NCBI RefSeq assembly: GCF_964194155.1
Contig: NC_135909.1
Location: 3,237,118 to 3,288,000, forward strand
DNA from: Cetorhinus maximus
Lineage: Eukaryota
DNA: 50,883 nt
Reading direction: 5' to 3'
In this document: in pieces, positions 6,860-50,332 of the stretch
Layout: each line of letters opens with the position of its first letter
Numbering within the stretch: the first letter of the stretch is position 1
Program-made: the position numbers and the translations under genes
The notes under the pieces: generated by a model
Told to the model about the DNA's origin: nothing
The model's input: only the letters and a program-made list of their open reading frames with translations
Database searches by the model: none

Positions 6860-7420
6860 CCCACCCTCAGAGCAATTTCCGGTTCCGGTGCCTCAGACGA
6901 TGGTGACGGGAGTAATGGAGGCGGCGGAGAATCCGTGGTCGGGGCCGGAGCCGAATCCACCGGCATCGGCTCCATCGGGCGGTGAGTGAGCGCGTTCCTG
7001 TCACCGATGGAAAGGGAAGGAGGGGATCGGTTGAATGGCGTCGATATTGACCGGGGGAGGGAGAGATTTGTCGCCGACGCCGGGAAGCGGATCCGAGCTG
7101 GCGCTCGGCTTTTCCGATGAGGGGGGAGGGGCACCAGCTTGTTGTGAGGGGAAAGTCGGATATGGGTTGGGGTGGGTGGAAGAGACTGAAGGACGCCATC
7201 TTCCATCACCATTCCTGAATTTGGCTCCATCTTTCCCCTGCCCCCCTTTCAAGGCTCTGAGATCGGGCGGAAACCCCGCTCGTAATGGCGCCGATAACCG
7301 GCCTTGGCGGAGGGGCACCGCGCAGGCGTAGACCCGGTTTCTGGGCGGGGCGGGGAGGAGGAGGTGAGGATACAAGACCCGGATGGGAACCCGGAAGTAA
7401 CATCACATCAATCCTTCCCG
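6860..7420 (+). promoter_or_regulatory. CpG island / TATA-less promoter region of the PRPF39-like gene
   Basis: Dense CpGs, tandem ETS/GABP-type cores TTCCGGTTCCGG (6877-6888), GC boxes gggcggggcgggg (7343-7355) and CCGGAAGT at 7391. Overlaps predicted exon 1. Confidence 0.7.
6900..6981 (+). CDS. PRPF39: PRPF39-like exon 1 (MVTGVMEAAENPWSGPEPNPPASAPSG; start at 6900 or 6915)
   Basis: ATGs in a CpG island with an open frame to donor G|GTGAGT at 6982. Phase 1 joins in frame to the acceptor at 10857 (G+AC = Asp). No homology support. Confidence 0.65.
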
Positions 7421-7959
7421 CCAGTTGACAACATATGGGGGTGGAATGAATTCATCTACTTAACACTCCCTCCACGGACCCAGACAGGTTTAGGGGGTTG
7501 GAGAAGCTGGGATTGTTCTCCTTGGGGGCAAAGGAGATTGAGGGGGAGATCTGATAGAGGTGAACAAGATGGTGACAGGTTTGGATAAGGTAGACAAAGA
7601 AAAGCTGTTCCCATTGGCTGATGGGACAAGGACAAGGGTTTACGGATGTAACATTCTGGTGCTAATTCTGACCCTGAGTTCCCTTCAAAGAGGACTTGTC
7701 ACAGGGCGCGTGGTGAACTTTTCTAACGTTTGAGTGATCAGTCACAGGAATTTTAGTGTAGCATCGCAGGGCCTGATCTGACCGAAGGGACGGGGCGCCC
7801 TAACATTGGGATTGGACTGTTCCATGTGTCAGGTTTGAAATTGGGTCAGGGTCGGCGCTGAGGGTGCGCTGCATTGTCAGGGGAGGGGAAGTCGACGTCG
7901 AAGTGTTGGGGGAGGGGAAGATGGCGCTGAGGGTGCGCCGCAGTGTCAGGGGAGGTTGG

Positions 7960-8130
7960 TGCCGAGGGTGCGCTGCACTGTTGGAGGAGCAGTCTTTTGG
8001 ATAAGACATCGAACTGAGGCTCCATCTGCCTGCTCGGGTGATGTAAAAGATCCCAGGGCACTGGGAAGAAGAACGTGGGGGAGTTCTCACCGGTGTCCTG
8101 GGGTCGATATTTATTCCACAGTCAACATCA
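7960..8130 (+). mobile_element. Deu-domain SINE 5' part; the tail resumes at about 9816-9975 after a LINE insertion
   Basis: gtaaaagatcccagggcact...gggagttctcaccggtgtcctgg matches the Deu domain of AmnSINE1/SacSINE1-type SINEs as recalled. Repeated at 14000-14240. Confidence 0.65.
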
Positions 8131-9815
8131 TTCCGGAAATCCCCAGCATCACAGATGCCAGCCTTCAACCAATTTGATTCACTCCACATGATATCAAGAA
8201 ATGGCTGAAGGCACTGGATACTGCAAAGGCTACAGGGCCTGACAATATTCCAGCAATAGTACAGAAGGTTTATGCTCCAGAATTTGCTGCGCCCCTAGCC
8301 AAGCTGTTCTAGTACAGCTACCACACTGGCATCTACGCAGTAATATGGAAAATTGCTCAGCTATGTCCTGTATACAAAAAGCAGGACAAATCCAACCCGG
8401 CCAATTACTGCCCATCAGTGTACTCTCGATCATCAGTGAAGTAATGGAAAGGGTCATCGACAGTACTAACAAGCGGCACTTGCTTAGCAATAACCTGCTC
8501 ATTGCCGCTCAGTTTGGGTTCCGCCAGGGCCACTCAGCTCCCGACCTCATTGCAGCCTTGGTTCAAACATGAACAGAATAGCTGAACTCCTGAGGTGAGG
8601 TGAGAATGACTGCCCTTGACATCAAGGCAGCATTTGACCGAGTGTGGCATCAAGGAGCCCTAGCAAAACTGGAGTCAATGGGAATCGGGAAAATTCTCCA
8701 CTGGTTGGAGTCATACCTAGCACAAAGGAAGATGGTTGTGGTTGTTGGAGGTCAGTCATCTCAGCTCCAGGACATCACTGCTGGAGTTCCTCAGGGTAGT
8801 GTCCTCGGCCCAACCATCTTCAGCTGCTTCATCAATGAGCTTCCTTCCATCATAAGGTCAGAAGTGGGGATGTTCACTGATGATTGCACAATGTTCAGCA
8901 CCATTCAAAACTCCTCAGATACTGAAGCAGTCCATGTCCAAATGCAGCAAGACCTGGACAATATCCAGGCTTGGGCTGACAAGTGGCAAGTAACATTAAT
9001 GCCACACAAGTGTCAGGCAATGACCATCTCCAACAAGAGGAATCTAACCATCGCCCCTTGATGTTCAATGGCATTACCATCGCTGAATCCCCCACTATCA
9101 ACATCCTGGGGGTTACCATTGACCAGAAACTGAACTAGACTAGCCATACAAATACTGTGCCTACAAGGTCAGATCAGAGGCTGGGAATCCTGTGGAGAGT
9201 AACTCACCTCCTGACTCACCAAAGCCTGTCCACCATCTACAAGGCACAAGTCAGGAGTGTGATGGAATAGTCCCCACTTGCCTGGATGAGTGCAGTTCCA
9301 ACAATGACTCAAGAACCTCAACATCATCCAGGACAAAGCAGCCTGCTTGATCGGCACCCTATCAGCAATATTTACTCCCCCCCCCACCACCGACGCACAG
9401 TAGCAGCAGTGTGTGTACCATCTACAAGATGCACTGCAGCAACTCACCAAGGTTCCTTTGGCAGCACCTTCCAAACCCACGACCTCTACCATCTAGAAAG
9501 ACAAGGGCAGCAGATAGATGGGAACACCACCACCTGGAAGTTCTCTCTCTCCACCCCCCCCCCCCCCCCCCGCCCCCCCCACACCCAGTCACACACCATC
9601 CTGACTTTGAACAATGTCGCTGCTCCTTCATTGTCACTGGGTCAAAATCCTGGAACTCCCTCCCTAACAGCGCTGTGGGTGTACCTACACCACATGGACT
9701 GCAGCGGCTCAAGAAGGCAGCTCACCCCCACCTTCTCAAGGGCAATTAGGGGTGGGTAATAATTGCTGGCCTAGCCAACGTAGCCCATATCCCGTGAACA
9801 GATTTTTAAAAAAAG
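8131..9815 (+). mobile_element. 5'-truncated decayed LINE (CR1-group reverse transcriptase) in intron 1
   Basis: RT motifs LDIKAAFDRVWH, GVPQGSVLGP, FTDDCT, DLDNIQAWADKWQ, broken by stops and frameshifts. Ends in an A-rich tail. Confidence 0.9.
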
Positions 9816-10199
9816 CTAAAAACAGATTGCTGTTTGTGGGAGCTTGCTGTGCATGATTGGGCTGCTACGTTTCCTATGTTACAGCAGTGACCACACTTGG
9901 AAATATTTCATTGTCTGTAAAGCACTATGGACATCTGGTGGTCCTGAAAAGCGCTGTAGAAATGCAGCCCTTTCTTCAGGAGTGTTCTGGAGAGGCACGG
10001 CTAGTTACAGGTCTGTCAGCAAAGCTAACGTTTGGAGGCAATGAATTCAGGTTATCATGGCCTGAGACGCTATCAGAGATTCGAATGTCTTTGAGTTTCC
10101 AGCTCCCTCACCAGGATTTTCATTGTTTGTTTGATCATCCGTTACAGACCTGTTACAGAGTATGACATCTGCATAGGCAGTTGCACTATTTTTAATTTT

Positions 10200-10665
10200 C
10201 ACTTTATCATTCTAATCTCTGCTGCCCGTGTCCTAACTTGCTCTACACCCGCTCGCCGATCTGCTCTGTGATCACTGACCTATGTGGGCCCAGTGTTAAG
10301 CAACCTCTCCATTTAAAAAAAAAAATCCTTAATTTCAATTCCATCCATGGCCTTGCTCCTCCCTATCTCTGTAATCTCCTCCAGTTTTACAGCCCCCGAG
10401 GCCTGTGTGGCCTGCTAATTCTGGCCCTTTGAGCGTTCCATATTTTAATCACTCCACCATTGGTGACCCGCCTTTCACTGCCTGGAGCCTAAAACTCTGT
10501 AATTCCCTCCCTAAACCTCCCTGATTTTCTACCTTGTTTTACTCCTTTAAGACGCCCCTTAAACCCACTTCTTTGCCCCTTCATCACCTGTCCTAATACC
10601 TCCCTATAGGCTCGGTGTTGAATTTTGCGATTTGAAGCTGCTATGTGAATGCAAGCTATTGTTGG
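10200..10665 (+). mobile_element. L2-like LINE 3' fragment
   Basis: ccatggccttgctcctccctatctctgtaatctcctccag...aattccctccctaaacctc. Reverse-complement relatives lie at 22430-22820 and 24370-24590. Clade is inferred. Confidence 0.55.
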
Positions 10666-10857
10666 TGTATCACCATTATTTTCCCTGGTAAGTGTTGATT
10701 GTATTCAGAATGGATGACCCTTCCAGGCACAGCCTATTCTCAATGTCGTTAAACTTCGTGGAACCGTGGTCTCCAGCTGTTTCTCACCAGCCTAAACTGT
10801 GACCGTTCCGAGTGCCTGTGCGTTAACCTCTGCTGTCTCCCTCTCTTTTGTTTGCAG

Positions 10858-12815
10858 ACGGTGAGCAGAAATTACTGAAAGGCAGTCTGGGTGGGAGCGA
10901 TCAGTGCGCCGTGCAGAAGGGGTCCACACGAGCCCTTGGCCTACATGCCGATGAGACTGCAGTAGAGGAGGCGATTGCCGACTGCCCCAGCCCCTGTGAC
11001 AGGGACTCCGGCGAGGAATCAGCGGCAGACACTCCAGGCTCAAGTGACGGGGCCACTGTGGAGGACCCGGCAGCCGATTCCACTGGGGACACGGGTGAGG
11101 AGTCAGCAGCCGATTCCACTGGGGAGGAGTCAGCAACTGATTCCAAAGGCCCAAATGACAGTGGAGAGGAGTCGGCAGCAGATTCCACAGGACCAAGTGA
11201 TGGGGACACTGTAGAGGAGGCAGCAGCGGACAGCCCTGGCCCCTGTGATGGGGACACTATGGAGGAGGCAGCAGCGGACAGCCCTGGCCCCTGCGATGGG
11301 GACACTGTAGAGGAAGCAGCAGCGGACAGCCCTGGCCCCTGTGATGGGGACACTATGGAGGAGGCAGCAGCGGACAGCCCTGGCCCCTGTGATGGGGACA
11401 CTGTAGAGGAAGCAGCAGCGGACAGCCCTGGCCCCTGCGATGGGGTGTCTGTCGATGAGGCAGCAGCGGACAGCCCTGGCCCCTGTGATGGGGACACTGT
11501 CGATGAGGCAGCAGCGGACAGCCCTGGCCCCTGTGATGGGGACACTATGGATGAGGCAGCAGCGGACAGCCCTGGCCCCTGTGATGGGGACACTGTCGAT
11601 GAGGCAGCAGCGGACAGCCCTGGCCCCTGTGATGGGGACACTGTCGATGAGGTAGCAGCGGACAGCCCTGGCCCCTGTGATGGGGACACTGTAGAGGAAG
11701 CAGCAGTGGACAGCCCTGGCCCCTGTGATGGGGACACTGTCGATGAGGCAGCAGCGGACAGCCCTGGCCCCTGTGATGGGGACACTGTCGATGAGGCAGC
11801 AGCGGACAGCCCTGGCCCCTGTGATGGGGACACCGTCGATGAGGCAGCAGTGGACAGCCCTGGCCCCTGTGATGGGGACACTGTCAATGAGGCAGCAGCG
11901 GACAGCCCTGGCCCCTGTGATGGGGATACTGTAGAGGAAGCAGCAGCTGATTCCACTGGCCAAAGTGTTGGGGACATGAGGGAGGAAGCTGCTGCACGCA
12001 GTCCTGGCCATTGTGATATGGATACCGTAGAGGAGGCAGCTGCTGATAGCCTTGGTCTGTGTGATATGGACACCGTAGAGGAGGCGGCTGCTGGTAGCCC
12101 TGGCCCCTGTGATACAGACACTGTGGAGAAGACGGCTGCTGGTAGCCCTGGCCCCTGTGATACAGACACTGGAGAGGTGACGGCTGCTGGTAGCCCTGGC
12201 CCCTGTGCTACAGACACTGTAGAGGAGATGGCTGCTTGTAGTCCTGGTCTGTGTGATGATACTGTGGACAGTCCCAGCCCATGTGACCGTAATGAAGTAG
12301 AGAAGTCAGCTGCTGAAAGTCCAAGTCCGTCGGGTGTTCAGAGCACAGCAGGAGAACTATCTGGAAGTCTTAACCCGCCTTCTGATCAGGACAATGTGCC
12401 AGAGGTGGAAATGGGTGGGCCGAGCATTGACAAGGATACTGCGGAAGAATCAGCTAATGAGTGCACTAGCCTGGGTGCTGGTGGTCAGGACACTGTAGGT
12501 GAGCTAGCTGCCGATTCTTCCTGTAGTACGATGGTGCAGGAGGGAGTGCCACAGCTCCCAGAGAGCTCCAATGGGCCAGAGCATGTGGTAGACAAAGCAC
12601 TGGCCAACTCTGATTGTGTGGGCTACACAACAACAGAGGGCACCGCTGCTGGCCTGGATGAGTATGGGCAGGGCAGCAGTGAGTACGGGGCCTTGGAGGC
12701 CGAGGGCAGCATCCCGCCGTACCCAGCGGACTTTGAGAAATACTGGAAGATAGTGGAGGATAATCCGTACGATTTCACTGGATGGACATACGTCTTGCAG
12801 TACGTGGAACAAGAG
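10858..12815 (+). CDS. PRPF39: PRPF39-like exon 2: giant acidic tandem-repeat region followed by the first HAT repeat
   Basis: Acceptor ctctcttttgtttgcag and a 1958-nt open frame ending PADFEKYWKIVEDNPYDFTGWTYVLQYVEQE|gtgagg, matching the end of human PRPF39 exon 2. Confidence 0.9.
11199..12260 (+). repeat. Coding minisatellite, 48-nt unit (16 aa): 15 near-identical copies at 11199-11918 plus about 7 diverged copies
   Basis: Unit gatggggacactgtcgatgaggcagcagcggacagccctggcccctgt, counted directly. Confidence 0.97.
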
Positions 12816-13999
12816 GTGAGGAGATTGTAACGTGGGCATTGGCTGGGCTGGTTGTACCTCCTTGTATCACTGCTGTATCTCTTCCTGTTCACCTCGTAGT
12901 ACAGTGTGTCCCTACCTACTTGTCCTCCCTAATCCAGTGCCAATCTGTATCCCTGCCTGTTTGTAGAGACCACTGGGACAGCAAGTGGACTCCTTCTGTA
13001 GGTTTTTTTCCCTAGTTTGGGATGCTTTGAGAGCGTAACACTGTCCGTGCGCCAAAGGGGGTTTGAAAGCGAAAGGGTGTCTGACCTCGGAATAACCGGA
13101 CTATGAGCAGGAATAGGAGAACGTTGCTTGGGTTGTGACTGCTGGCCTGTTCAGAGTTTTGAGGCACTTGAAGCAGGATGTGGGGGTGGGGGTGGTAGCA
13201 TTTCAGCAGCTGGTGCAGGTGAAGGTGTCAGCAGCTGAATATCAGGCACAGAGGGGGCCAAGGATTCAAAGAACCCCAGAGTTGGAGAAGAGGGCTGCGG
13301 AGAGTAGACTGCAAGAGGATTTTTTTTTTTAAAGTAGCGTTCAGGGAGGGTGAGAGCCAGTGAAAGGTGGGGGATGGCACTTCACGCAGTACAGAATAAG
13401 GCTGGTGGCATTTGAAGGTTCTGAAAGACAGGAATCTGGAGGCCGACAAGGAAAGAATGGAGTAGTTTGACTCTGGGCGTGACGAAGGCAGCCTAAACAT
13501 CACTGGGGCTGAAATGGAGCTGATGGGGTGAGGTGGAAGTAGGTGGAGGATGTGGGGGTATTATCTCCGCTCTGAGCGAGGTTGGACTCGGATTGGTTGA
13601 GCAGCCAGCCAGGGAGGGAGGGCGCCGAGGCGTGGCGTGTTTGGCGGAGACCCAGGAAGACGAGGGGGGAAGCTCCGAGGTTACAGTTAACACAAGATGC
13701 CTTTGACCAAATGCAGAGCTTGGGGTGGGGTCAGGGCTGGGCAGGAGCCTGATAGGGTGGGAGGGAGGCCCTGTGGCTTGGGTTGAGGAGTGTGTGTGGT
13801 GGGTGGGGGTAGGGTGGTGTGGAACATACAGCTGGCTGGGTGGGTAAGGCTAGAGGAAACATGGAGATGTGTTGGAGAGAAGAATCCCTTTGATCATCCA
13901 ACCTGATGGGGTGGGAGGGGCTGGTAGACCCTTGTGCTGGACTTTGTGGCAGGTGATTAGCTGGGTGAGGGGGTGGAAGAGCATGTACTAGCGCTTTTG

Positions 14000-14240
14000 T
14001 GCCAGTCAGTAGGTTGCGGGTTCGAGACCAACACCAGAGACTTGAGCATGCAGTCTAGACTTGACACTCCCAGTGCCAGCACTGAGGGAGTGCTGCACTG
14101 TCAGAGGTGCTGCCTTTCAGATGAGACATCAAACTGAGACCTTCTCCAGTGAGATCCTATAATTCTATTTTGAAGAGGGGCAGGGGAGTTCTCCACAGGT
14201 GTCCTGGCCAATATTTCTAACTCAGCTAACATCACTAACT
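14000..14240 (+). mobile_element. Deu-domain SINE
   Basis: tRNA-like head (gggttcgagacc) followed by actgagggagtgctgcactgtcagaggtgc...gtgtcctggccaatatt. Confidence 0.65.
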
Positions 14241-14806
14241 GCTAGTTCTGTCTGTCTACACATTTTGGTTTAATGTTTGTAAGTTTCCTTTAAATTTAGT
14301 CTTTTGTTTTTGCAGTTTCCCTTTAAGCGGCTCCCTTTTAATTTGTCCCTTGATTTGTTAATTTAGTTTATTTGTTTTGACTCGAGAGTTACAGCCCACT
14401 CACCCTGCCCCTCCGTCCCTGTGCCAAGCCCAGCTTTCAGGAAAGTTGCAGCGTAACTGGCACCTGTGATTTCCCCCCCACCCCCCATGCCCTCCTCACT
14501 GAGCCCTGTGCCTTGGGCACCAGGAACAGTGGTCCTGTTCTGCAGCCCCACTATAAGGGCCTTCCTGGCAGTTTGACTATCTCTCCTTCCCTTGCCTGCT
14601 TCAGCTGCTGAGCAAGAAAAGGAGGGGTGACCATATCGAGTGTTCCGGCGAGGGGGCAGGTGGGCATCTGAGGGTGGTAGTATACCCGAGCACCCGGACC
14701 GGCAGGATTGGCAGTGTGGTGAGGAAGCACGTGGCATGGGGAAGTGTTTCTCTGGGCACGTTGTAGATGCTGGGCTGCTCTGTTGTTAATTCTAGTCTCC
14801 TTTCAG

Positions 14807-14932
14807 AATCACATCTGGGCCGTGCGGAAGGCGTTCGATGCATTCTTCGCCCGCTACCCCTACTGCTATGGCTACTGGAAGAAATACGCTGACATTGAAA
14901 AGCGTTTGGGGTTCACCAAAGAGGTTGAGGAG
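14807..14932 (+). CDS. PRPF39: PRPF39-like exon 3
   Basis: NHIWAVRKAFDAFFARYPYCYGYWKKYADIEKRLGFTKEVEE; AG/GT boundaries, 126 nt. Confidence 0.96.
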
Positions 14933-15255
14933 GTGAGGGGGGTGATGCTGGGAGTTTTGGGGCTTCTGTTTCCTTTCAGTTGTTTAAGCTGCTGACTAAA
15001 ACTACTGGTATACGGCTGACAGGTTGGTCAGATTACACCATGGTCGCTGGGCTACTTTTGACCACTGGTGCCAACTTGTGACAGAAAAATATTAGACCTT
15101 TGCCAATGAACTTTATGTGATTACGTTTGCGATTTTTATTTCTCTGCTTCTCAACATAGACACAACTGTGGACATTGTAGATGTCGACAGTGTGGAGGGA
15201 AGCCATTTGGCCCATGTGTGCCCAGCCGCTCACTTTCCCTTTTTCTCTTTGCCAC

Positions 15256-16708: not shown

Positions 16709-17113
16709 CCCATCAAACATTCCCAGGACAGCTACACCATGGGGTTACATACAGAGTAAAGCTCCCTCTACACTGTCCCCATCAAATACTCCTAGGGCAG
16801 GTACAGCACGAGGTTAGATACAGAGTAAAGCTCCCACTACACTGTCCCCATCAAACACTCCCAGGACAGGTACAGCACGAGGTTAGATACAGAGCAAAGC
16901 TCCCTCTACACTCTCCTCATTAAACACTCCCAGGACAGGTACAGCACGGGGTTAGATACAGAGTAAAGCTCCCACTACACTGTCCCCATCAAACACTCCC
17001 AGGGCAGGTACAGCACGAGGTTAGATACAGAGTAAAGCTCCCACTACACTGTCCCCATCAAACACTCCCAGGGCAGGTACAGCATGTGGTTAGATACAGA
17101 GTAAAGCTCCCTC
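16709..17113. repeat. 69-bp minisatellite, about 6 copies
   Basis: Unit tacactgtccccatcaaacactcccaggacaggtacagcacggggttagatacagagtaaagctccctc. The marker gagtaaagctcc recurs every 69 nt. Confidence 0.95.
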
Positions 17114-17214
17114 TATCTAAATAATGTGCTTAGCCCCCTTTTTTCACAAGCATCCCATTTGTCCCGTTTCTTACTGATGTGTTCTAACAGTTGCACTGTG
17201 TTTTTTTGCTGCAG

Positions 17215-17333
17215 GTTTACCAGCGAGGTCTCCAGTCCATCCCACTCAGTGTCGATCTGTGGGTTCATTACATCACTTACCTGCAGGAGGTCCTTGAGGC
17301 TACCAATCCTGAAACTCCTGCTAAACTTCGAAG
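17215..17333 (+). CDS. PRPF39: PRPF39-like exon 4
   Basis: VYQRGLQSIPLSVDLWVHYITYLQEVLEATNPETPAKLR; 119 nt; donor AG|GTAAG. Confidence 0.96.
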
Positions 17334-17807: not shown

Positions 17808-17810
17808 TTT

Positions 17811-19384: not shown

Positions 19385-19552
19385 TGTGTTTGAAATGGCG
19401 TTGGCTGCCGCCGGCACCGATTTCCGCTCTGACCGACTCTGGGACCTGTACGTGAACTGGGAGAAGGAGCAGGGGCAGCTGAAGGCCGTGACTGCCATTT
19501 ACGACCGGGTGCTGTCGATACCCACGCAACTCTACAGCCACCACTTTGAGAA
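19385..19552 (+). CDS. PRPF39: PRPF39-like exon 5
   Basis: VFEMALAAAGTDFRSDRLWDLYVNWEKEQGQLKAVTAIYDRVLSIPTQLYSHHFE; 168 nt, phase 2/2. Confidence 0.97.
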
Positions 19553-22965: not shown

Positions 22966-23137
22966 GTTTAAGGAACACGTGCAGAACTACTCACCGAAGG
23001 ACATCCTGTCCACCGACGAGTTCCTCAAGCTGAGGTCAGAGGTCGTGACCAGCCTAACGGTGGCAGAAGCAGATTGCGACGAGGGTCCCCCTGGAGACGA
23101 CCCTCCCCCTGGAGTGGGGACCACTGACGAGGAGAAG
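22966..23137 (+). CDS. PRPF39: PRPF39-like exon 6
   Basis: FKEHVQNYSPKDILSTDEFLKLRSEV...GPPGDDPPPGVGTTDEEK; AG/GT boundaries and phase consistent. Confidence 0.95.
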
Positions 23138-23893: not shown

Positions 23894-24001
23894 GCTGACA
23901 CGGAGCTGGAGAAGATCCGAGCGCACCTAGTGGCCACTCGGCATGAGATGTACCTACTGAACGAGGAGGAAGTCAGCAAGAGGTGGAATTTCGAGGAGGC
24001 G
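23894..24001 (+). CDS. PRPF39: PRPF39-like exon 7
   Basis: ADTELEKIRAHLVATRHEMYLLNEEEVSKRWNFEEA; 108 nt. Confidence 0.95.
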
Positions 24002-24658: not shown

Positions 24659-24823
24659 ATCAAGAGGCCGTACTTCCACGTCAAGCCTCTCGAAAGAGTG
24701 CAGCTGAAAAACTGGAAGGACTACCTGGATTTCGAGATTGCCGGCGGCACCAACGAGCGGGTTCTGGTATTGTTCGAGCGTTGTATGATCGCCTGTGCTC
24801 TGTACGAGGACTTCTGGATCAAG
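24659..24823 (+). CDS. PRPF39: PRPF39-like exon 8
   Basis: [55 protein letters not shown]; 165 nt. Confidence 0.98.
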
Positions 24824-25232
24824 GTGAACCCCCTCTTCTCAGAAGCTCGCACCCGGGATACAGATCCCAGCTTTTCCTGCCGATCGTTCCCGATCAGCGG
24901 CTTCTCGTTTTTTCCTTTTATAATTTTTGTGTTTGTTGATTATTTTTTGCAAGCGTTTCCAACAAAAAAAATTTCACGTTTTACTTTGATGATCTGACTT
25001 CTAACATAATCTTTTAATTCCATTGCTGTTTTATCTGCACGTGTTGCTTCAAACTAAAGAAGTTAAGGGATTGCTGAAGAAATGTGTAAGCGTGTTATCA
25101 CTGTGAGTGCCCCCTCCAGTTCTCAATAAGCTGTACCATGATGTCTTTTTATTTTTTAACACGGCGCCGTGCGCGTCGGAACCAGTTGATCTTGTTTTCC
25201 TTCATCCCTTTCTGACCTCCTTCTGCCCGCAG

Positions 25233-25359
25233 TACGCCAAATACCTGGAGAACCACAGTGTGGAGGGGGTCCGTAATGTTTTCCAGCGGGCCTGCATGGT
25301 CCACCTGCCCAAGAAGCCCACCCTGCACTTGCTGTGGGCCGCCTTTGAGGAGCAGCAAG
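25233..25359 (+). CDS. PRPF39: PRPF39-like exon 9
   Basis: YAKYLENHSVEGVRNVFQRACMVHLPKKPTLHLLWAAFEEQQ; 127 nt. Confidence 0.97.
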
Positions 25360-26475: not shown

Positions 26476-27262
26476 GAGGTCCCCAGCATCACAGATGCCA
26501 GTCTTTGGCCAGGTCGATTCACTCCATGTGATATCAAGAAATTTGATTGGTAAGGGGATCAAAGGTTACGGGGAGAAGGCGGGAGAATGGGGTTGAGAAA
26601 CTTATCATCCATGATTGAATGGCGGAGCAGACTCGATGGGCCGAATGGCCTAATTTCTGCTGCTATGTCTTATGGTCTATATGGCACTGGGCCCTGACAA
26701 TATTCCGGCAATAGTAATGAAGACTTGTGCTCCAGAACTTGTCGCGCCCATAGCCAAGCTGTTCCAACACAGCTGCAACACTGGCATCTACCCAGCTATG
26801 TGGAAAATTGCCCAGGTATGTCCTGTACACACAAAGCTGGACAAATCCAACCCTGCCAATTACCGCCCCACCAGTCTACTCTCCATCATCAGTAAGGGAA
26901 GGGGTCGTCAACAGTGCTATCAAGCAGCACTCACTTAGCAATAACCTGCTAACTGGCGCCCAGCTTGGGTTCTGCCAGGGCCACTCAACTCTTGACCTCA
27001 TTACAGCCTTGGTTCAAACATGGACCAAAGAGCTGAACTCCCAAGGTGAGGTGAGAGTGACTGCCCTTAACATCAAGGCAGCATTTGACCGAGTGTGGCA
27101 TTAAGGAGCCCTAGCAAAACTGGAGTGAATGGGAATCAGGGGAAGACTCTCCACTGGTTGGAGATGTACCTGGCACAAAGGAAGATGGTTGTGGTTGTTG
27201 GAGGTCAGTCATCTCAGCTCCAGGACATCACTGCAGGAGTTCCTCAGGGTAGTGTCCTAGGC
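26476..27262 (+). mobile_element. LINE fragment (family of 8131-9815) containing a short CR1 tail insert (about 26542-26682)
   Basis: GPDNIPA..KTCAPEL, NPANYRP.SLLS, KAAFDRVWH, GVPQGSVLG. Confidence 0.85.
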
Positions 27263-30634: not shown

Positions 30635-30903
30635 GTGACCTCGAGGAAGCCCGGCGTATCCTCAAGTCCTTCCAGATGGTGGTGCCCGGCCTGGCGATGG
30701 TGCTCCTGCGGCGCGTGAGCCTGGAGCGTCGCTGCGGGCACCTGGACCAGGCAGAGGAGCTCCTGCGGGAGGCCATCGAGCAGCACAGGGACACGGCCCT
30801 GGCCTCCTTCTTCTCCATCAAACTGGCGAGGCAGCTCCTGAAGGTGCAGAAGAGTCTGGTGAAGGCCAGGAAGGTGCTGCTGGAGGCTGTCGAGAGGGAC
30901 AAG
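30635..30903 (+). CDS. PRPF39: PRPF39-like exon 10
   Basis: GDLEEARRILKSFQMVVPGLAMVLLRRVSLERRCGHLDQAEELL...RKVLLEAVERDK; 269 nt. Confidence 0.97.
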
Positions 30904-31609: not shown

Positions 31610-31794
31610 GAGAACACCAAACTGTACCTGAACCTGTTGGAGCTGGAGTTCAGCGGTGATGTCCGAGTGAACGAGGCCAACATCTTGGGCTGCTTCGAGC
31701 AGGTGCTTATCAGCTCCCTCCCCCTTGAGACCAAAATCGTCTTCTCCCAGCGGAGAGTGGAGTTCCTGGAGGATTTTGGCTGCAATGTACAGAC
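31610..31794 (+). CDS. PRPF39: PRPF39-like exon 11
   Basis: ENTKLYLNLLELEFSGDVRVNEANILGCFEQ...FSQRRVEFLEDFGCNVQ; 185 nt. Confidence 0.97.
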
Positions 31795-32696: not shown

Positions 32697-32771
32697 ATTA
32701 CTACACGCCTACGATGAACATCAGAAACTCCTCAAGCAGAATTCCAGTAAGAAGCGAGCGGCCGAGAATGG
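32697..32771 (+). CDS. PRPF39: PRPF39-like exon 12
   Basis: LLHAYDEHQKLLKQNSSKKRAAENG; 75 nt. Confidence 0.95.
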
Positions 32772-34177: not shown

Positions 34178-34331
34178 TACCGAGGAGCCGGAGGAGAAGA
34201 AAGCGAGGGTGGATGATTCCTCCACAGGCAGCATAGCGAGCACAGCAACAACCACCACCAACTCCACGGCCCTAATGAGCGGAGATGTAACCAGCAGCCA
34301 GGCGGCGTACAACTACAGTGCGTGGTATCAG
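34178..34331 (+). CDS. PRPF39: PRPF39-like exon 13
   Basis: TEEPEEKKARVDDSS...GDVTSSQAAYNYSAWYQ; donor CAG|GTATGT. Confidence 0.95.
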
Positions 34332-34872: not shown

Positions 34873-34935
34873 CCTTACGGATCGTATGGATATCAGAACC
34901 CGTGGAACTACAGTCAATATTACTCTCACAGCTGA
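34873..34935 (+). CDS. PRPF39: PRPF39-like exon 14 (last coding exon)
   Basis: PYGSYGYQNPWNYSQYYSHS-stop, compared with human YNYQNPWNYGQYY; strong (CT)n-gcag acceptor. Confidence 0.95.
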   Translation, partial: PYGSYGYQNPWNYSQYYSHS

Positions 34936-41014: not shown

Positions 41015-41706
41015 GGGTTGGATCTTACAGGGTGCGGTGTTCCCCACGCCCCTTGACGAAAAGCTCAGTCGGGAGCCTGCCCACGAATAAGCCAGCTGTC
41101 CCACAGCTATTTTACCCTAGGTGGGGCGTTAACTGACTAAGGACAAGATTTCTGCCACCGCTTGGAGAAGCGGAGAGAGCTGCGGGGCATTTGGATTGGC
41201 GGGCAGCTCTGTAGACCCAGCAACGGCAGGTTTGAGCAGTGGTCACTGCTGGGACTGCAGCCAGCCCCTGAAGAAGCGGAGAGGTTATTGGAAGCTGGGC
41301 TGAAGGTAAGTCCAGTCCTAGCTGGCAGGCCCCAGCGAGGGGAGGTGAGGGGCTGAGTTTGGGAATCCAGGTGTGGGAGAGTTAAAGGGGGGGGTAGGGG
41401 GGTTTGCCTCAGATGGGTATAAAGCAGCGGCCAGTTGGATTAAGCGCTTGGCATAGGCTTATACGCCAGAATCCCCCCCTCCCCCAGGGCTGCGGGTAAG
41501 ATAGTGGCAGAGGTAGGTGAGGCCCTTAAGTTGCCATTAGCTAAGAGGTCTCCACCATGTGAACCCCTCCCCAACCCCCCAACTCCCTGCAGAATTGGAG
41601 ACAGTTTGGAGGTCAATGGGAAGGCAGTGGGCAGGCCAATCGCTGCATTTTATGAGCCAGCATCCTGCCTTCAAACATGCTGGCAAGGGATTGTAAAATC
41701 CAGTCC
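41015..41706. mobile_element. Probable non-autonomous DNA transposon with imperfect TIRs
   Basis: gggttggatcttaca at the left and tgtaaaatccagtcc at the right (12/15 complementary), with a GC-rich interior. Confidence 0.5.
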
Positions 41707-42745: not shown

Positions 42746-43147
42746 ATGAGCTTCGGTGACATCTTGGAGGATGTTGGCGGCATGGGAAAATTCCAAATCA
42801 TCCACGTTTTGTTGCTGGTAGTCCCAACACTTTTTTTGCCCAGCCACAACATGCTTCAGAACTTTGTGGCTGCTGTACCCGACCATCACTGCCGGGTCCG
42901 CTTGGAAATGAACGGCTCGGGTCCCGCCAACGCTACAACCACACTGCAGGCAGAGGAGCTTCTCCGCGCTTTCATCCCTCTGGACCAGAATCAGGAGCTG
43001 GAGCAATGCCGTGTGTATTCCTCACCTCAGTGGCACCTGCTGGACCCCAACGCGACCTGGCGAAACACGACCGAGTACGACATGCAGATATGCACTGACG
43101 GGTGGACGTACGACCACTCCCAGTTCAAAGCCACAATTGTCACAGAG
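42746..43147 (+). CDS. SLC22A6: SLC22 organic anion transporter (OAT1/SLC22A6-like) coding exon 1
   Basis: MSFGDILEDVGGMGKFQ...SHNMLQNFVAAVPDHHC...PQWHLLDPNAT...CTDGWTYDHSQFKATIVTE|gt, covering TM1 and the glycosylated extracellular loop. Exact orthology among SLC22A6/8/12/20 is uncertain. Confidence 0.92.
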
Positions 43148-43609
43148 GTACACGTGAGAATGTTTATTTGCTAAAGGTTTCAAGAACATTGTGTGTAATG
43201 TGGACCTGAAGGAAGGTCTGTGGATGGATCGGTATACACTGGGATAACCTCACATCCATGAGGAGTTTTCAAATCAAACATCTGGGAACACATGCAGGAT
43301 TTGTGTCATTGCCAGGGGTAACAGCACCTTCAGCCCCCTTAATAGCCCAATTGGCAAAGTGACCGCTGGTGTGGTACTAAGCCATAAAGACTAGAAGATT
43401 TCATGCTTCCTTTTTGCATTGAATTAGCTAATCTCATTGTGGTGGCAGCTGTGACATGATAACAGTTCTGTTACAGGGAGAGGAATAAAGCAGTCGAGGG
43501 GGTCACACTGCTAGGTGCCATCCTACTCAAAGGTGCAAGTGTGTGGAACAAGGCTAGGCTCAGCTCTGAGATTCATCATAGTCTAAGAGGCTGCTGATAT
43601 CAGTATCTA

Positions 43610-44300
43610 GGCTGAAAAAAAGAAACATATTGTCGAAGCTTTTTGTCTTGCACTCATCAGGACAGATGCACGAATACCAAATTTCGACGGGAGCAGCAAC
43701 AGTTTATACTGTATGAGAGAAGGGTGCTGATTAATTGGCAAGTCAACTCTGGTCGAGGCATTGCCGTGGAGATTGCACCAGGGAAGCAATGTCTTCCAAG
43801 ATGTTGCTTTAATTCAAGAAAGTGCGATGCCTGGACATGCTCCTTTTGCCTGCAGAGGACAGGTGCCTGTGTATGAATATATGTAGCTTTTAGCAAGCAT
43901 AAGTGAGCCACATTGCAAACCCAATTGATGATCTTAAATTGGTCGTTAGTGTAATTCTGTGCAGCAAGTGTTGTCCAGTCACTGAATCACACCTGAAGCT
44001 CTGAGTTTTGCTAGTACATTGAGGAAATAGAACTCGTTAGAATGTTTCATTTCGAAGGTGAATTTGAGTGTGGAATGGAGCCTATTAAAACATGTAAAGA
44101 AATTCTTACATGCTGTTGCGTGTTCAAATATAGTAAACATATCATCTCCATATTGGAAATATGCAAGAGATAGGGAGTTAGGGGTCATTCCATCAAAAAC
44201 ATGTTTCTCATGGAAACCAATGAAAATGTTAGCGAGAGCTGGGCCCAGAGGGGGTCCCATGAAATACACCATCTATTTGGGCATACATGGTGTCATTTAA
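43610..44300 (-). mobile_element. Penelope-like element remnant: RT fragment, GIY-YIG C-terminus and terminal repeat (pLTR)
   Basis: MYAQIDGV / MGPPLGPALANIFIG..YFQYGDDMF..LHSTLKFTFE (PLE-type RT), then LKATYIHTQAPVLCRQKE, then the pLTR. Confidence 0.85.
43631..43664 (-). ncRNA. Decayed minimal type I hammerhead ribozyme
   Basis: Minus strand tgtc-CTGATGA-gt(gcaag)ac-aAAA-agct-TC-gaca: stem I, core, short stem II, palindromic stem III. GAAA is mutated to AAAA. Confidence 0.7.
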
Positions 44301-44314
44301 AGCTGAACTCAACT

Positions 44315-45580
44315 GTGTGAGTTGGGAGTGTTTTCCTTGGAGAAAAGAAGGCTGAGGGGAGATTTGATAGAGGTAATGACACAGCAGATGGTAAATGCCG
44401 AGCTGTTCAAATCCCAGAGGGGAAGATGAAATAACTGTCACAACTAATTTTCAATTTGTATAAATTTCGAGATGCGTGCCTTGAATTCAGTAGTACTAAG
44501 ACCAGCAAGTCTTATAGATTTTTATAAAACTAGAGGAGTGATTTTAAATACATATAGTAGTAATTTGTAGATCTATGTAAGTTCTAAACCCCCTAATCAA
44601 TCTAACTCCCAGTTACACTTTCATTAAGGCAACAGTAAGACACACAGATTTTAAAAGACCCGGGCAAAGAAACATGATACCCTGAACAAGTCGACTTCCA
44701 AGTGAGTTTTCTTAACTTCAGTCCTGTGAAGACAGCGGCTTGAGGCTTAGATGCTGACTGTTTTTCATACTTGTAAGATCTTAAAAATGGCTTCTCTTAC
44801 ACACAGCCCTTGCTTCTTCTTTATACATATCTCCCTCTTTGAATGCAAAGACCCATTGTTTCACTATGGCTTTGGACTTTATCTCCCTGATAATAAAACC
44901 CTCTCAGAGCACTAAGTTTTACCAGTAATCTTTGGGAAAAATAAACACACTGTTTCTAAACTTCACCTGGCTAGGTGACACATTTCACCCCTCCTTTGAA
45001 AACAATCTAGTCTGGTTTATTTTAAAATGCAAATGCTCCCTTGACACCAATGTTTCTAAACTTCCCCAAGTTTATCTAATTAACATTTCTAACCTAACTT
45101 CTCAGCTCAAAGCACCCAGAATAGCTGCCTCTAATTCAGTTAAGTCTCTCGCACACAGACACATCCCACTTTTACTCTATTTTACATTAAATTCCAATAA
45201 CATTATGAGAATTATTATATCTTCTTGACATAGGGTATTCAAAATCACGAGGGGCCTGGACAGAGTAGATAGAAGGAAACTGTTCCAACTCATAAAAAGA
45301 TCGAGAACGAGAGGGCACAGGTTTAAAGTAATTGGCAAAAGAAGCAAAAGCCGCTTGAGGAAAAAATATTTTCACGCAGAGAGCGGCTAAGATCTGGAAC
45401 GCGCTGCCTGAGAGTGTGGGCGGACGCAGATCCAATCGAGACTTTCAAAAGGGAATTAGACTGTTTTCTGAAAAGGAGGAATGTGCAGAGGGAGTGGCAC
45501 TGAGGGAATTGCTCATTCAGAGGGCCGGTGCAGACACGATGGGCCGAATGGCCGCCTCCTTCGCAGTAACAATTCTGTGA
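44315..45580 (+). mobile_element. CR1 LINE 3' end split by a solo LTR
   Basis: ttttccttggagaaaagaaggctgaggggagatttgataga | LTR | ggtattcaaaatcacgagggg...gatgggccgaatggcc. Confidence 0.8.
44372..45230 (-). mobile_element. Solo LTR (second copy of 4295-5169)
   Basis: Colinear similarity over about 860 bp, ending at the same ...tcttcttgaca; no PPT follows. Confidence 0.75.
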
Positions 45581-46029
45581 GTTGCTAAGTTCAATGAATA
45601 CAGATTTAGAAAATGGTGGCGTGTCTAGATTGGCCATGATATAGTAACACGGTGCAAATATCTACAGCTCCCTTGAGCTATGGCTTCCGCTGGCTCCTAC
45701 TTGATCTTAAATCCCCACAGATACCAGCAGAGAGAAAACTGAGTGGAAGATTACAATGCACCCTGTGGGTGGACCTATACTCACCAACTGCTCTGCTGCT
45801 GCTGCTGGCATGAGGATTATGGAAAATTGAAGTCTCATTTATTAAGCACGGCAACCAGAGATGGTGGAAGTACAAGCAAACTGTGCAGATATTCATGCAA
45901 TGTCTGAAAGTGATATGACACCCACTCCTCATGTAACAACCCCGCTTAAATAACTTGCCCTTCCCGGCTGAGTTCATTTTGCACTTGATCAGCATTACCT
46001 CAGGTTCCCCATTCATTGACTCATTCTTC

Positions 46030-46282
46030 AGGACAATGCCTTGACCAATCAGGATCAAGCTGCCTGGATTAAATTTCAAATAATGCTTGGCAGTTAACAG
46101 TCAGTCACAATCGCTGGTGCATTCTCCAGGGCAACGCCACTTGCCAACCAATTGGCACTCTCTTCACATACAGTATAAATTGTTGTTTCCCACCCCCACC
46201 CCCCCACCTTATATTGGTATTCTGGCGAGTGTCCTGATGAGTGCGAGACAAAAAACTTCAACATGTCTCTGTTTTTCAGCAA
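46030..46282 (+). mobile_element. Penelope-like terminal repeat, inverted relative to 43610-43790
   Basis: Shared catacagtataaa...ttggtatt...tgtcctgatgagtgc.agacaaaaa.cttc.aca...tttttcagc. Confidence 0.75.
46230..46263 (+). ncRNA. Decayed minimal hammerhead ribozyme (second copy)
   Basis: tgtc-CTGATGA-gtgcgagac-aAAA-aact-TC-aaca. Confidence 0.6.
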
Positions 46283-46599
46283 TTCTCCATTTAAGCAAAC
46301 AATTAACATTCTGGATGATGTGGTTACTGTCCAGTAATGGTTAAGGAATAGGCCTGTTTACAAAGGAAAAAGAATAAATCAAATGAAGCAAACAAGAGCA
46401 AAGATCCAGCAAATGATTCTGCTCCCTTGAAAATCGACGCTTTGAAAATTGTTGCCTGAGAAATGTTGTGGACTTCATTTCCCAACCACTGTTCACTGTG
46501 GAGGCAACTCTTCCCCCACTCCCCTCCCCACCCCACCTGCCCCAGGGGTTCAGCTGGTAAAAGCAACAGTGTGGGAGTGAATGAAATGGCTTCTTGGAT

Positions 46600-47032
46600 A
46601 AGTGTGAGGAAAGATTGGAGAGGCTGGGTTGTTCTTCTTGGAACAGAGGAGGCTTGGGGGGGAGATTTGATTGAGATGTACAAAATTGTCAGAGGCCTGG
46701 GTAGAGTGGATGGAAAGGACCTGTTTCCCTTAGCAAGGAGGGGGCAGAGATTTAAAGTGATTGGTAGAGAGATTAGAGGGGAGATGAGGAAATGTTTTTT
46801 TCACCCAGAGGGTTGCAGGGATCTGGAACTCGTTGCCTGAAAGGGTAGTGGAGGCAGAAACCCTCAACTCATTTAAAAGGTGCCTGGATGTGCATCTCAA
46901 CTGCCTTAACCCACAGGGCTGTGGACCAAAAGCTAGAAAGTGGGATCAGGCTGGGTGGCTCCTTTCTTGGCCAGCACAGACATGATGGGCCGAGTGGCCT
47001 CTTTCTGTGCCATAAACGCTCTATGATTCTAT
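46600..47032 (+). mobile_element. CR1 LINE 3' end
   Basis: GDLIEMYKIVRGLGRVD; tail gatgggccgagtggcct...ctatgattctat. Confidence 0.8.
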
Positions 47033-47211
47033 AAGGTGCCGTTGTCCCTGTGGCACTGTAATAACGCAGCTCAAGTCAGCAGCCGACTGGCCACATGTGG
47101 ATGGCTACGCTTGCTGGCCCTCTGCTCAGCCCAGACTTACAGCTTTCAGTTGGCACAGCGGCACTCCAGAGAGTGCACGTCGTCCAGAGTGGACTCCTCC
47201 AAACTGAAGGC

Positions 47212-48210
47212 TGAACACAGCACAATCCCAGAATCCCCAGAGGGTCACCACTGAGCAATCCCAGAATCCCCAGAGGGCGAGCACTGTGCAATCCCAGAAT
47301 TCCCAGAGTGTGAACACTGCGCAATCCCAGAATCCCCAGAGGGTCAACACTGAGCAATCCCAGAATCCCCAGAGGACGAACACTGCGCAATCGCAGAAAC
47401 CCGAGCGTGAACACTGCGCAATCCCAGAAACCCCAGAGCGTGAACACTGCGCAATCCTAGAAACCCCAGGGGACAGACACTGAGCAATCCCAGAATCCCC
47501 AGAGGGCCAACACTGCGCAATCCCAGAATCCCCAGAGGGCCAACACTGCACAATCCCAGAATCCCCACAGGGCAAACACTGCGCAATTCCAGAATCCCCA
47601 GAGGATGGACACTGAGCAATCCCAGAATCCCCAGAGGGTGAACACTGCGCAATCCCAGAATCCCCAGGGGATGGACACTGCGCAATCCGAGAATCCCCAG
47701 GGGCGGACACTGAGCAATCCCAGGATCCCTAGACCGTGAACACGACGCAATCCCAGAATCCCCAGGGGACAGACACTGAGCAATCCCAAAATCCCCAGGG
47801 CGTGAATACGCGCAATCCCAGAATCCCCAGAGGGCCAACACTGTGCAATCCCAGAATCCCCAGAGGGCGAACACTGCGCAATCCCAGAATCCCCAGAGGA
47901 TGAACAGTGAGCAATCCCAGAATTCCCAGAGGGTGAACACTGAACAATCCCAGAATCCTTTGGGTGAACACTGTGCAATCCCAGAATCCCCAGAGGGTGA
48001 ACACTGAGCAATCCCAGAATCCCCAATGAGCAATCCCAGAATCCTTTGGGTGAACACTGTGCAATCCCAGAATCCCCAGAGGGCGAACACTGAGCAATCC
48101 CAGAATCCCCAGAGGACGAACACTGAGCAATCCCAGAATCCCCGGAGGACGAACACTGAGCAATCCCAGAATCCTTTGGGCCAACACTGAGCAATCCCAG
48201 AATCGCCAGA
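47212..48210. repeat. 33-bp minisatellite, about 30 copies
   Basis: Unit aacactgagcaatcccagaatccccagagggtg, which gives the 11-aa periodic spurious ORFs. Confidence 0.95.
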
Positions 48211-50228
48211 GGAAAAACGCTTTTAAGATATTAGGTGTATTACCTTGGCTGCATGGTTATCTTGCAGCTGGTTCAATGGCTTTCAGATGGTGTTTCTGTT
48301 GGTATCTGTCCCAGGACAGCTTCTGCTGTTTATACTTCAACACTGTCTCCTGCCAATGCAATATGGCCACTCAGGGTGGCCGCCGATATCCGTCCGCACA
48401 TGCGCACATGTCCGCGCACGTGTGGAAAGCCAATGACGCCACTGGCCGGAGACACAGTGCTAGCAAAACCCGCCTTTTAAAAATACTTCTGCGATTAAGG
48501 GGAGGGGAATATTAAAGCAACCAGAGAAACTTCCTTCTCCCTTCCCAATTCCATAAGCAAAGGGTTACAAATCAAAAACCCTGAATGACGTGAGCTGTGT
48601 ATTATAACTACTGTGACAAGCCTGTTGCATTGAACTGAGCCGGAGATTGATGGGAAACCTGGACACACACCTACATTCTGGCTGGCCTTTAAATTTGTGT
48701 CAAATTTTTTTTTGGGGGGGGGGGACACATTTATTTCTGTTAAACTGTGTGCATATTTTCTTTTATTTAGGAAACCAAAACTTTTGGTTTTGATTTTTAT
48801 CTCCGTCGCTCTCGGTGACACCACAGAGTGAGACGGCACAACGTGTTGGCAACAGACCCAGCCAAATGTTGAAAGGAAGTAACAAACATGGCTGCCTCAC
48901 CCACGTGACCTGTTAAAAGCCCAAAGTCCTTTCCAAATAAGGTGGTGGGTGAGGCGGATACACGTCCTGTGTTTTGGCTCTTCACACCCTGAGAGTTTCG
49001 GACAGCTCAGGTCCTCCGTGCTTGGGATGAGGAGCCTTCGCAGCACAATGAAAGTTCGATGAGACCCATTTCATATTGATCATGCACCTTTTGAGTTTCA
49101 TCCTCTCCGCTGCCCACGAAGAAGAAAGACGAGTCGGCTGTCTTGTTAGTGACTTTCCTGTTGAAGGCGCATCCTTAATGAAGGGATGCGTGAATTTCAC
49201 AAGCGTCCATGTATAATTAAGTATTTTCTTGGGTTTTGGGATTGTCTGGAGCTGGATACTGCCAAGTCACGTGATATGTTACAGCCGTCTTAAATAGCTT
49301 TTGGCGTCCGCTTTTTAAAACACAGCTTTAAAATTTGTAATATCTTCATGCCTGTACTGGGCAAGGCAGGTAGATTATGAGAAAGTCAATACTGTGGCAC
49401 TGAATATGTTGGGTGTGAGGCATTTGCAGAATGTGTTTTTAACACTCTGTCACCTGCCAACGCAAGATGGCCTTCTGCCTATGCACGGAAATCGAGTGGC
49501 ATCATTCCCCTGTGACCAGGCTGCCAGTATCAGTCTGTGCATGTATAGTTAAAGCCCATCTGTGCAGGGCTGCATTTAAAATTTGGGGGTTCCCCAGGGA
49601 GTGTGTCAGTAGGCACGGAGAGTCCATGGGGAGGGCTGGGAAATATTTACAGGGGTCCCCCCTCCTCCTCCTCCTCTCCCTGAGTAAACATCTCGGGGAG
49701 GGGGGGGGGGGTGGAGTCCCCTGCTAATTCCAAAGCACTTCCTGGGCATACTGGCACACTCCGAGGGGAGCCCTCCCTATCTCTCACGCCTAGGATTAAC
49801 CTCCTTCCTTTACTCTCGCTTCCAAGGCTCACCCTCTCGAGAAAGGTTCGGATTTATCGCAAGGCCCAAGTTGTTCTGGGGTCAGCTCAGCACAAATGGA
49901 TACAGTTTCACGACACTGTCTGTGTGCCGCTGCCCAATCTGTGACGATTTCAGCAAGAGCCATCTTTGGTCCTGGCCGCTGCCTAGTCGGGGGCGGTCCA
50001 AGGGACATCATGGAGCGACCCGCTCGAACTGCGCGTGTTCCGAGCCTGCACAGCGTTGGCACGAAATGCAGCCCTTTTTCTATTCTTTCATGGGGCACTG
50101 GCATCGCCGGCGAGGCCAGCGTCTTTATTGCCAATCCCTAATTGCCCTTGAGAAGGGCGGGTTAGGGGTTAGGGCTACTGCTGACGTTGTTAAATTCCCA
50201 AATAACTCTCGGCTCCATTCTTTCACAG

Positions 50229-50332
50229 TGGGACCTGGTGTGCGCCTGGAAGTCTCTGAAGTGGATCTCACAGTCTATCTACATGGCTGGCTTACTGATA
50301 GGAGCCATAATACTGGGCAGGCTTTCGGACAA
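50229..50332 (+). CDS. SLC22A6: SLC22 organic anion transporter coding exon 2
   Basis: Acceptor tctttcacag, then WDLVCAWKSLKWISQSIYMAGLLIGAIILGRLSD(K); 104 nt; donor AA|GTAAG. This frame is not in the ORF track. Confidence 0.93.

What the first reader, a model, noticed from the sequence alone, without database searches (positions are those of the whole stretch)
6900..50332. PRPF39-like lies next to an OAT-type SLC22 gene: probable second PRPF39 paralogue absent from mammals
Human PRPF39 (14q21) is followed immediately by FKBP3 and hosts SNORD127. Here the downstream neighbour is an SLC22A6/8/12-type gene, a cluster at human 11q12-13, and I see neither FKBP3 exons nor a SNORD127-like sequence. 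11q13 and 14q are generally placed in one whole-genome-duplication paralogon. This may be a retained ohnologue with intact exon phases but a new N-terminus. PRPF39 acts as a homodimer that replaces yeast Prp39/Prp42, so a second paralogue could allow a heterodimeric or tissue-specific U1 snRNP component (inference).
Basis: partly seen in the sequence, partly recalled or inferred. Interest (0 to 1): 0.7.

Follow-up and report, generated by a model that had tools for sequence, protein, structure and literature searches.

The report
Second PRPF39 splicing-factor gene in sharks
This intact shark gene is an old second copy of the splicing factor PRPF39, also found in rays, bony fish, amphibians, reptiles and birds but not among the mammal proteins retrieved, and it keeps the surface for pairing with the standard copy.

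Summary
Real. A 14-exon gene (6900-34935, 1256 aa) equals a basking-shark RefSeq protein labelled 'uncharacterized'; that species has a separate canonical PRPF39, 62% identical. Trees give two jawed-vertebrate clades: A (holds the mammals) and B (this gene), each 100/99; a shark-only duplication is rejected, p-AU 2e-8. B occurs in sharks, rays, coelacanth, lungfish, gar, sturgeon, a tetra, amphibians, reptiles and birds; 0 of 39 mammal proteins listed are B. Monotremes and marsupials were not seen. The four charged dimer residues tested in mouse are invariant in 30 of 30 B rows; a modelled A+B dimer passes (0.81, control 0.02), probably by likeness to the solved mouse homodimer. The long N-terminus is a shark-specific 16-residue acidic repeat. 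Neighbours (SYVN1, OAT-type SLC22 for B; FAU, TMEM151 for A) fit an ohnologue, but human map positions are recalled. A candidate 43-nt poison exon lies in intron 8, the intron that holds the human one (weak support). Databases list B as 'PRPF39-like'; seven searches found no paper on it. It qualifies the one-gene homodimer view of metazoan PRPF39.

The parts
1..3143 (+). Probable last exon and 3' UTR of the upstream gene (SYVN1 is a guess, not shown)
   Evidence: Covered by contigs of runs X4 (33-3127), X1 and X14 (to 3143), which are only guessed to be RNA and give no strand; AATAAA at 3122; frame 2-37 ends in a Ser/Pro-rich stop like turtle SYVN1, but tblastn with turtle SYVN1 finds nothing there
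6900..6981 (+). Exon 1 (start codon) in a CpG-rich stretch
   Evidence: CpG o/e 0.8-1.1 at 6801-7400; joint 6981 to 10860 in 2 of 4 runs laid, from related organisms
10858..12815 (+). Exon 2, 1958 nt: acidic low-complexity arm and start of the HAT N-terminal domain
   Evidence: residues 1-648 hold 161 Asp/Glu, 13 Lys/Arg, 29 Cys, 25 Ser-Pro, 4 aromatics
11197..12227 (+). 48-bp coding tandem array, about 21.5 copies, unit DSPGPCDGDTVEEAAA
   Evidence: period 16 aa in all 11 shark B proteins measured, weak in 1 of 6 rays and skates
14807..14932 (+). Exon 3
17215..17333 (+). Exon 4
19385..19552 (+). Exon 5
22966..23137 (+). Exon 6 (linker)
23894..24001 (+). Exon 7
24659..24823 (+). Exon 8
25060..25102 (+). 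Candidate 43-nt poison exon in intron 8 (AG before it, GTGAGT after it, in-frame stop at codon 5); unproven
   Evidence: turtle and emu B models carry an extra exon here; likeness weak (16 and 23 of 300 shuffles as good)
25233..25359 (+). Exon 9
30635..30903 (+). Exon 10, with the basic dimer patch (R1034, R1040 = mouse R458, R464)
31610..31794 (+). Exon 11, with the acidic dimer patch (E1152, D1153 = mouse E576, D577) and F1112 (mouse Y536)
32697..32771 (+). Exon 12
34178..34331 (+). Exon 13
34873..34935 (+). Exon 14, coding part with stop; AATAAA at 35472 and 36592 downstream
42746..43147 (+). First coding exon of an OAT-type SLC22 gene
50229..50332 (+). Second coding exon of the SLC22 gene

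Best explanation
The gene is PRPF39B, a working paralogue that split from mammalian-type PRPF39 (A) before cartilaginous and bony fish parted, most likely in an early vertebrate genome doubling, and was lost on the mammal line. Shown: intact gene, two clades, both copies in one species, same exon plan, kept dimer residues. Inferred from mouse and human PRPF39: it dimerises through its C-terminal HAT domain, binds U1C and TRNAU1AP-type partners and helps U1 snRNP engage weak 5' splice sites. Because the interface is symmetric and its charged residues are identical in A and B, cells that make both should form A/A, A/B and B/B dimers (inferred). B evolves faster in bony vertebrates, so it is probably a partly redundant or tissue-biased partner rather than the essential copy. 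The shark arm is a disordered, very acidic, Ser-Pro-rich extension that may tune partner or RNA access (inferred, low confidence). Levels are probably held by a poison exon in intron 8, as in human (about even odds).
For: Both copies in Cetorhinus (P0284, P0286; 378 of 614 identical) and in 15 more cartilaginous species, and in Latimeria, Lepisosteus, Acipenser, Astyanax, Ambystoma, Bombina, Gekko, Pogona, Dromaius. A and B each 100/99 in the careful tree of 29 rows, 100 and 98 under a mixture model on 25 rows. 162 of 171 sites invariant in A and cyclostomes are kept in this protein. R458, R464, E576, D577 invariant in 30 of 30 B and 34 of 34 A rows (residues from PMC6582350). A+B C-terminal domains: ipSAE 0.81, best of 3 controls 0.02, runs agree in at least 92% of contacts, pLDDT at least 88; the mark was reached by 51 of 78 solved and 2 of 108 mismatched pairs (eukaryotes: 71 of 105 and 2 of 126). 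Synteny: SYVN1 fused upstream of B in a Rhea model and given adjacent accessions in two turtles; FAU fused downstream of A in three ray-finned fish models and TMEM151 upstream in one sturgeon-like model; SYVN1, FAU, TMEM151A and the OAT genes map to human 11q12-13 (recalled). Exon 1-2 joint in 2 of 4 runs, from two studies.
Against: No function, binding or tissue data. The dimer model resembles solved 6G70, so the pass may be memory; close cousins passed 10 of 12 in the tool's older test and my alignments were not used. Interface identity between shark A and B (21 of 29) is not higher than the rest of the domain (152 of 231; p 0.54). Cyclostome position is open (with B 83/79; alternatives p-AU 0.16 and 0.18), so the duplication round is not fixed. 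Synteny rests on fused gene models and recalled human positions; no genome was available. The runs laid are only guessed to be RNA and are not this species'. B was not found in Callorhinchus, Xenopus or perch-like teleosts in my calls. The poison-exon likeness is matched or beaten by chance hits in other introns.
Confidence: 0.7

Rival explanations
1. B is a real old paralogue but specialised: it works as a B/B homodimer in its own tissues or on its own targets and rarely meets A.
For: B is less conserved than A between sharks and bony vertebrates (shark-gecko 61% against 73%; shark-gar 58% against 74%); 8 clade-diagnostic columns, one at the interface (Y to F); lineage-specific long arms in sharks and newts.
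Against: All charged interface residues are the same in A and B, so nothing in the sequence bars mixed dimers; at 6 of the 8 diagnostic columns cyclostomes match or lean to the B residue, so A is the more changed copy there.
Confidence: 0.2
2. A and B arose by a local or segmental duplication in an early vertebrate, not by whole-genome doubling; function as in the best explanation. This concerns origin only and is compatible with either function.
For: Trees date the split but not its mode; the paralogon is recalled, not tested.
Against: A and B lie on different contigs in Cetorhinus and Carcharodon; genes recalled from 11q13 flank both loci (SYVN1 at B; FAU and TMEM151 at A); the date fits the doublings.
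Confidence: 0.2
3. The gene is the ordinary PRPF39 moved by rearrangement, or a shark-only duplicate.
For: None beyond the 62% similarity and shared exon plan.
Against: A separate canonical gene exists in the same species; forcing all cartilaginous A and B together costs 145 log-likelihood units, p-AU 2e-8.
Confidence: 0.01

Closest known systems
Mammalian PRPF39 (mouse structure 6G70; PMC6582350, PMC5648754, PMC9808567, PMC13408128)
   Same: Two HAT domains, exon plan, charged dimer patches, basic motif and Tyr-rich tail
   Different: Separate clade; different neighbours; no intron-10 snoRNA found (chicken PRPF39 intron 10 has one, PMC2653536 table row); 648-residue repeat arm against 76; Y536 is F
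Yeast Prp39/Prp42 pair (U1 snRNP)
   Same: Two paralogous HAT proteins in one genome that could pair through their C-terminal domains
   Different: Independent duplication; yeast pair is 22% identical with a hydrophobic interface, A and B are 50-62% identical with the symmetric charged interface intact, so an obligate heterodimer is not implied
NCBI 'pre-mRNA-processing factor 39-like' entries of non-mammalian vertebrates
   Same: These are the orthologues: 114 of 361 classified proteins fall to B by best hit
   Different: Automatic labels only and unreliable (B is also called 'PRPF39', 'mucin-17-like' or 'uncharacterized'; some A copies are called '-like'). A Xenopus 'prpf39.2' and zebrafish si:ch211-114c12.2 are recalled as possible B names; neither was tested

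Membership tests
PRPF39/Prp39 family | N- and C-terminal PRP39 HAT domains | tested here: met
   PF23240 269 bits, PF23241 248 bits, far above cut-offs
PRPF39/Prp39 family | Charged dimer residues R458, R464, E576, D577 | tested here: met
   R1034, R1040, E1152, D1153; invariant in 30 of 30 B rows
PRPF39/Prp39 family | Forms a dimer through the C-terminal HAT domain | tested here: inconclusive
   A+B model 0.81 against 0.02, but a like complex is solved; B/B not modelled
PRPF39/Prp39 family | Binds U1C and promotes weak 5' splice sites | not testable with these tools
   N-terminal domain 69% identical to A; no binding residues mapped
PRPF39/Prp39 family | Poison exon in intron 8 | tested here: inconclusive
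   Candidate 25060-25102; extra exon in turtle and emu B models; no RNA laid on it
Orthologue of mammalian PRPF39 (clade A) | Groups with mammalian PRPF39 | tested here: not met
Orthologue of mammalian PRPF39 (clade A) | FKBP3 neighbour and intron-10 snoRNA | tested here: not met
   (limits given in the observation check)
Vertebrate ohnologue pair | Split dates to the vertebrate or jawed-vertebrate stem | tested here: met
   Both clades span sharks to birds; invertebrates lie outside (99-100)
Vertebrate ohnologue pair | Loci lie in paralogous chromosome blocks | tested here: inconclusive
   Only fused models and adjacent accessions; human positions recalled; no genome
Prp42-like obligate heterodimer partner | Asymmetric interface that bars homodimers | tested here: not met
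   Both charged patches intact in A and in B

The most novel reading that the evidence does not exclude
Non-mammalian jawed vertebrates use a mixed PRPF39A/B dimer as a distinct U1 snRNP adaptor, a re-evolved counterpart of yeast Prp39/Prp42, with the two genes balanced through poison exons in the same intron and the shark acidic repeat arm acting as a regulated RNA-mimic on the B side. The mammalian homodimer would then be a secondary simplification, and zebrafish, chicken or lizard data on PRPF39 would be confounded by the second gene.
Probability: 0.2. Interest if true: 0.75.

Novelty: new member of a known kind. Interest (0 to 1): 0.5.

Why it matters
The structural papers treat metazoan PRPF39 as one gene forming a homodimer, and one ties that state to complex splicing (PMC6582350). 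A second copy kept from sharks to birds with an intact pairing surface shows that the one-gene state is not general in vertebrates and gives a natural test of whether the two halves of the dimer can specialise. Against a high score: genes kept in other vertebrates and lost in mammals are common (own knowledge), the copy is already in databases under automatic names, and nothing here shows a new activity.

Tried and rejected
No genome of the window was available, so a direct genome search for the second copy was replaced by protein records. No RNA holder was listed for 6800-15000; no evidence either way. ESM Atlas gave no usable hit for the repeat arm. Pfam hits of the arm to Cornifin and Fibrinogen_BP are taken as low-complexity matches. 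Rfam's 18 weak hits are far below gathering. Intron 8 folds no better than shuffles (z -0.74). A first poison-exon guess starting at 24954 was dropped for 25060-25102; by eye the human 99-nt poison exon shows no clear likeness to window intron 8, and this was not scored. The upstream gene could not be named. The careful tree on 66 rows did not finish and is cited as a quick tree; 10 long-branch or partial rows were left out of it, and (29 rows; 25 rows) used subsets of the 76 rows. The planned Pfam check of the LINE-like frames was not obtained. Literature: 'prpf39'+'paralog' 28 papers, 25 listed, none on this gene by title or abstract start; 'prpf39.2' 0; 'prpf39-like' 0; six name variants 4 papers, 3 on plants and 1 a chance phrase; 'lost in mammals'+'ohnolog'+'shark'+'spliceosom' 0; 'prpf39'+'syvn1' 0; 'prpf39'+'genome duplication' 1, on plant U1C. 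The library lacks most subscription papers, and supplementary gene lists of genome papers were not searched, so a listing of this gene there is possible. One supplement of PMC13408128 was too large to read.
Full report
Observation. The window holds an intact 14-exon gene from 6900 to 34935, all introns GT-AG, 1256 aa. Its product equals P0286, a Cetorhinus maximus RefSeq protein named 'uncharacterized', and its core is 99.8% identical to the Carcharodon 'PRPF39-like' protein. It has both PRP39 HAT domains and matches mouse PRPF39 6G70 over residues 639-1254. Two exons of an OAT-type SLC22 gene follow. No FKBP domain was found in 89 minus-strand frames (86 plus-strand frames not scanned) and no snoRNA. 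The exon 1-2 joint appears in 2 of 4 runs laid, from two studies; these runs are contigs of related organisms only guessed to be RNA.

Two genes. Three homologue searches (best 120 listed of 295, 1580 and 1437), one search of 50% representatives (best 150 of 3261) and three cluster look-ups gave the set. Cetorhinus has a second, canonical PRPF39 on another contig (102 Mb against 24 Mb), 62% identical. Trees of the core give clade A with the mammals and clade B with this gene: 100 and 99 on 76 rows, 100/99 each on 29 rows, 100 and 98 under a mixture model on 25 rows. A shark-only duplication is rejected (p-AU 2e-8). Lamprey and hagfish, one cluster each, join B weakly, and the two other placements are not rejected (p-AU 0.16, 0.18).

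Distribution. By best hit 114 of 361 classified proteins are B, 245 A and 2 cyclostome; 4 of 365 were SYVN1. Both copies were seen in 16 cartilaginous species and in coelacanth, gar, sturgeon, a tetra, axolotl, a toad, lizards and birds; B also in lungfish, turtles, snakes and an alligator. None of the 39 named mammal proteins that I counted is B; all are placental. With a turtle B query no mammal appears among the B hits before the canonical proteins begin. Diverged B copies (toad, tetra) fell below that list and surfaced only, so a fast-evolving mammal copy could still hide. B was not seen in Callorhinchus, Xenopus or perch-like fish.

Origin. Shared exon plan: 25 of 30 deletions in clade-A isoform models remove a whole window exon. 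Neighbours come from fused gene models: SYVN1 upstream of B in Rhea, with adjacent accessions in two turtles; FAU downstream of A in three ray-finned fish and TMEM151 upstream in one sturgeon-like model. From memory, SYVN1, FAU, TMEM151A and the OAT genes lie at human 11q12-13 and PRPF39 at 14q21. That pattern fits two copies of one block with reciprocal losses. It is a lead; no genome was searched. I put genome doubling at about 0.75.

How it works. Mouse PRPF39 dimerises through opposite charge patches; R464D and E576K/D577K make monomers (PMC6582350, Results parts 1-2 of 3 read). These residues and R458 are invariant in 30 of 30 B and 34 of 34 A rows; Y536, dispensable in mouse, is F in 28 of 30 B. 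The protein keeps 162 of 171 deeply invariant sites and the basic motif and Tyr-rich tail. A model of shark A+B C-terminal domains scores 0.81 against 0.02 for the best of 3 controls (contacts agree at 92% or more, pLDDT 88 or more; mark reached by 51 of 78 solved and 2 of 108 mismatched pairs), with the same patches at the interface; since 6G70 is solved this shows likeness, not binding. Interface identity (21 of 29) does not exceed the rest of the domain (p 0.54). Human PRPF39 binds U1C, promotes weak 5' splice sites and binds TRNAU1AP (PMC5648754 and PMC9808567 passages; PMC13408128 passages and section 13). I infer the same for B, with mixed dimers where both are expressed. B diverges faster than A in bony vertebrates but not within sharks.

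N-terminus. Residues 1-648 have net charge -148 and 4 aromatics, which suggests disorder; the 73 N-terminal residues of mouse PRPF39 were not visible in the crystal. A 16-residue period is the best period in all 11 shark B proteins measured (arms of 481-823 aa), weak in 1 of 6 rays and skates (56-388 aa), and absent from other B proteins, mostly 70-125 aa; two newts have arms of 869 and 1034 aa without it. Copy number differs between species (6-34 motif copies). Differences among the window's units fall mostly on third codon positions (12, 14, 44), a hint of constraint on the peptide, though units share history.

Poison exon. The human gene has a 99-nt poison exon in its 313-nt intron 8 (supplement file 3 whole, file 4 part 1 of 3). 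Window intron 8 is the shortest of 13 (409 nt), the most U-rich (37%) and free of window repeats. Among 402 proteins with the exon-8 end motif, a turtle and an emu B model carry the same extra peptide there, frameshifting in the turtle. Its best match in intron 8 starts at 25059, next to an AG, and the only good internal donor gives a 43-nt exon with an early stop. The likeness is weak: 16 and 23 of 300 shuffles do as well, and other introns reach equal or higher scores. About even odds.

Novelty. Databases list B under automatic names. Seven searches found no paper on it; the main text of PMC6582350 has no 'paralog' or 'zebrafish' and its supplement lists one gene id per vertebrate row seen. 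PMC5595969, PMC5149563, PMC2211742 and PMC2653536 were seen as passages only. Earlier notes of this scan hold no look-alike and three other PRP39 findings, untested here. Verdict: a real, apparently undescribed paralogue of a known kind; interest 0.5.

Noticed in passing
P0275, P0283, P0303, P0308, P0316, P0319, P0325, P0355; P0277, P0278, P0307, P0320, P0351: Clade-A models of many sharks and rays stop just after exon 10 or switch there to a shared alternative tail; these would lack the acidic dimer patch. It is the intron that hosts a snoRNA in chicken.
   Followed up: no
P0366, P0388: Newt and axolotl B proteins have 869-1034-residue N-terminal arms without the shark repeat: a separate lengthening of the same region.
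   Followed up: partly
P0370: Bombina B is very diverged and has a 590-residue C-terminal extension with Pro-rich and tandem repeats.
   Followed up: no
P0413: A sturgeon B model is fused to a downstream tyrosine-kinase fragment, a further neighbour clue.
   Followed up: partly
P0208, P0214: Eel and conger clade-A copies have N-terminal arms of over 400 residues.
   Followed up: no
window 4372-5170 and 44448-45231: Two copies, about 90% alike, of an AT-rich element of about 800 bp; probably a dispersed repeat.
   Followed up: no
window 16709-17115 and 47208-48212: Intronic minisatellites of 69 bp (about 6 copies) and 33 bp (about 30 copies).
   Followed up: no
window 8140-9800, 26480-27262 and similar: Decayed LINE-like pieces with reverse-transcriptase-like frames (recognised from own knowledge; very high depth; copies).
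   Followed up: no
window 43148-50228: The first SLC22 intron is 7 kb and holds both the AT-rich element and the 33-bp minisatellite; the rest of the gene lies beyond the window.
   Followed up: no
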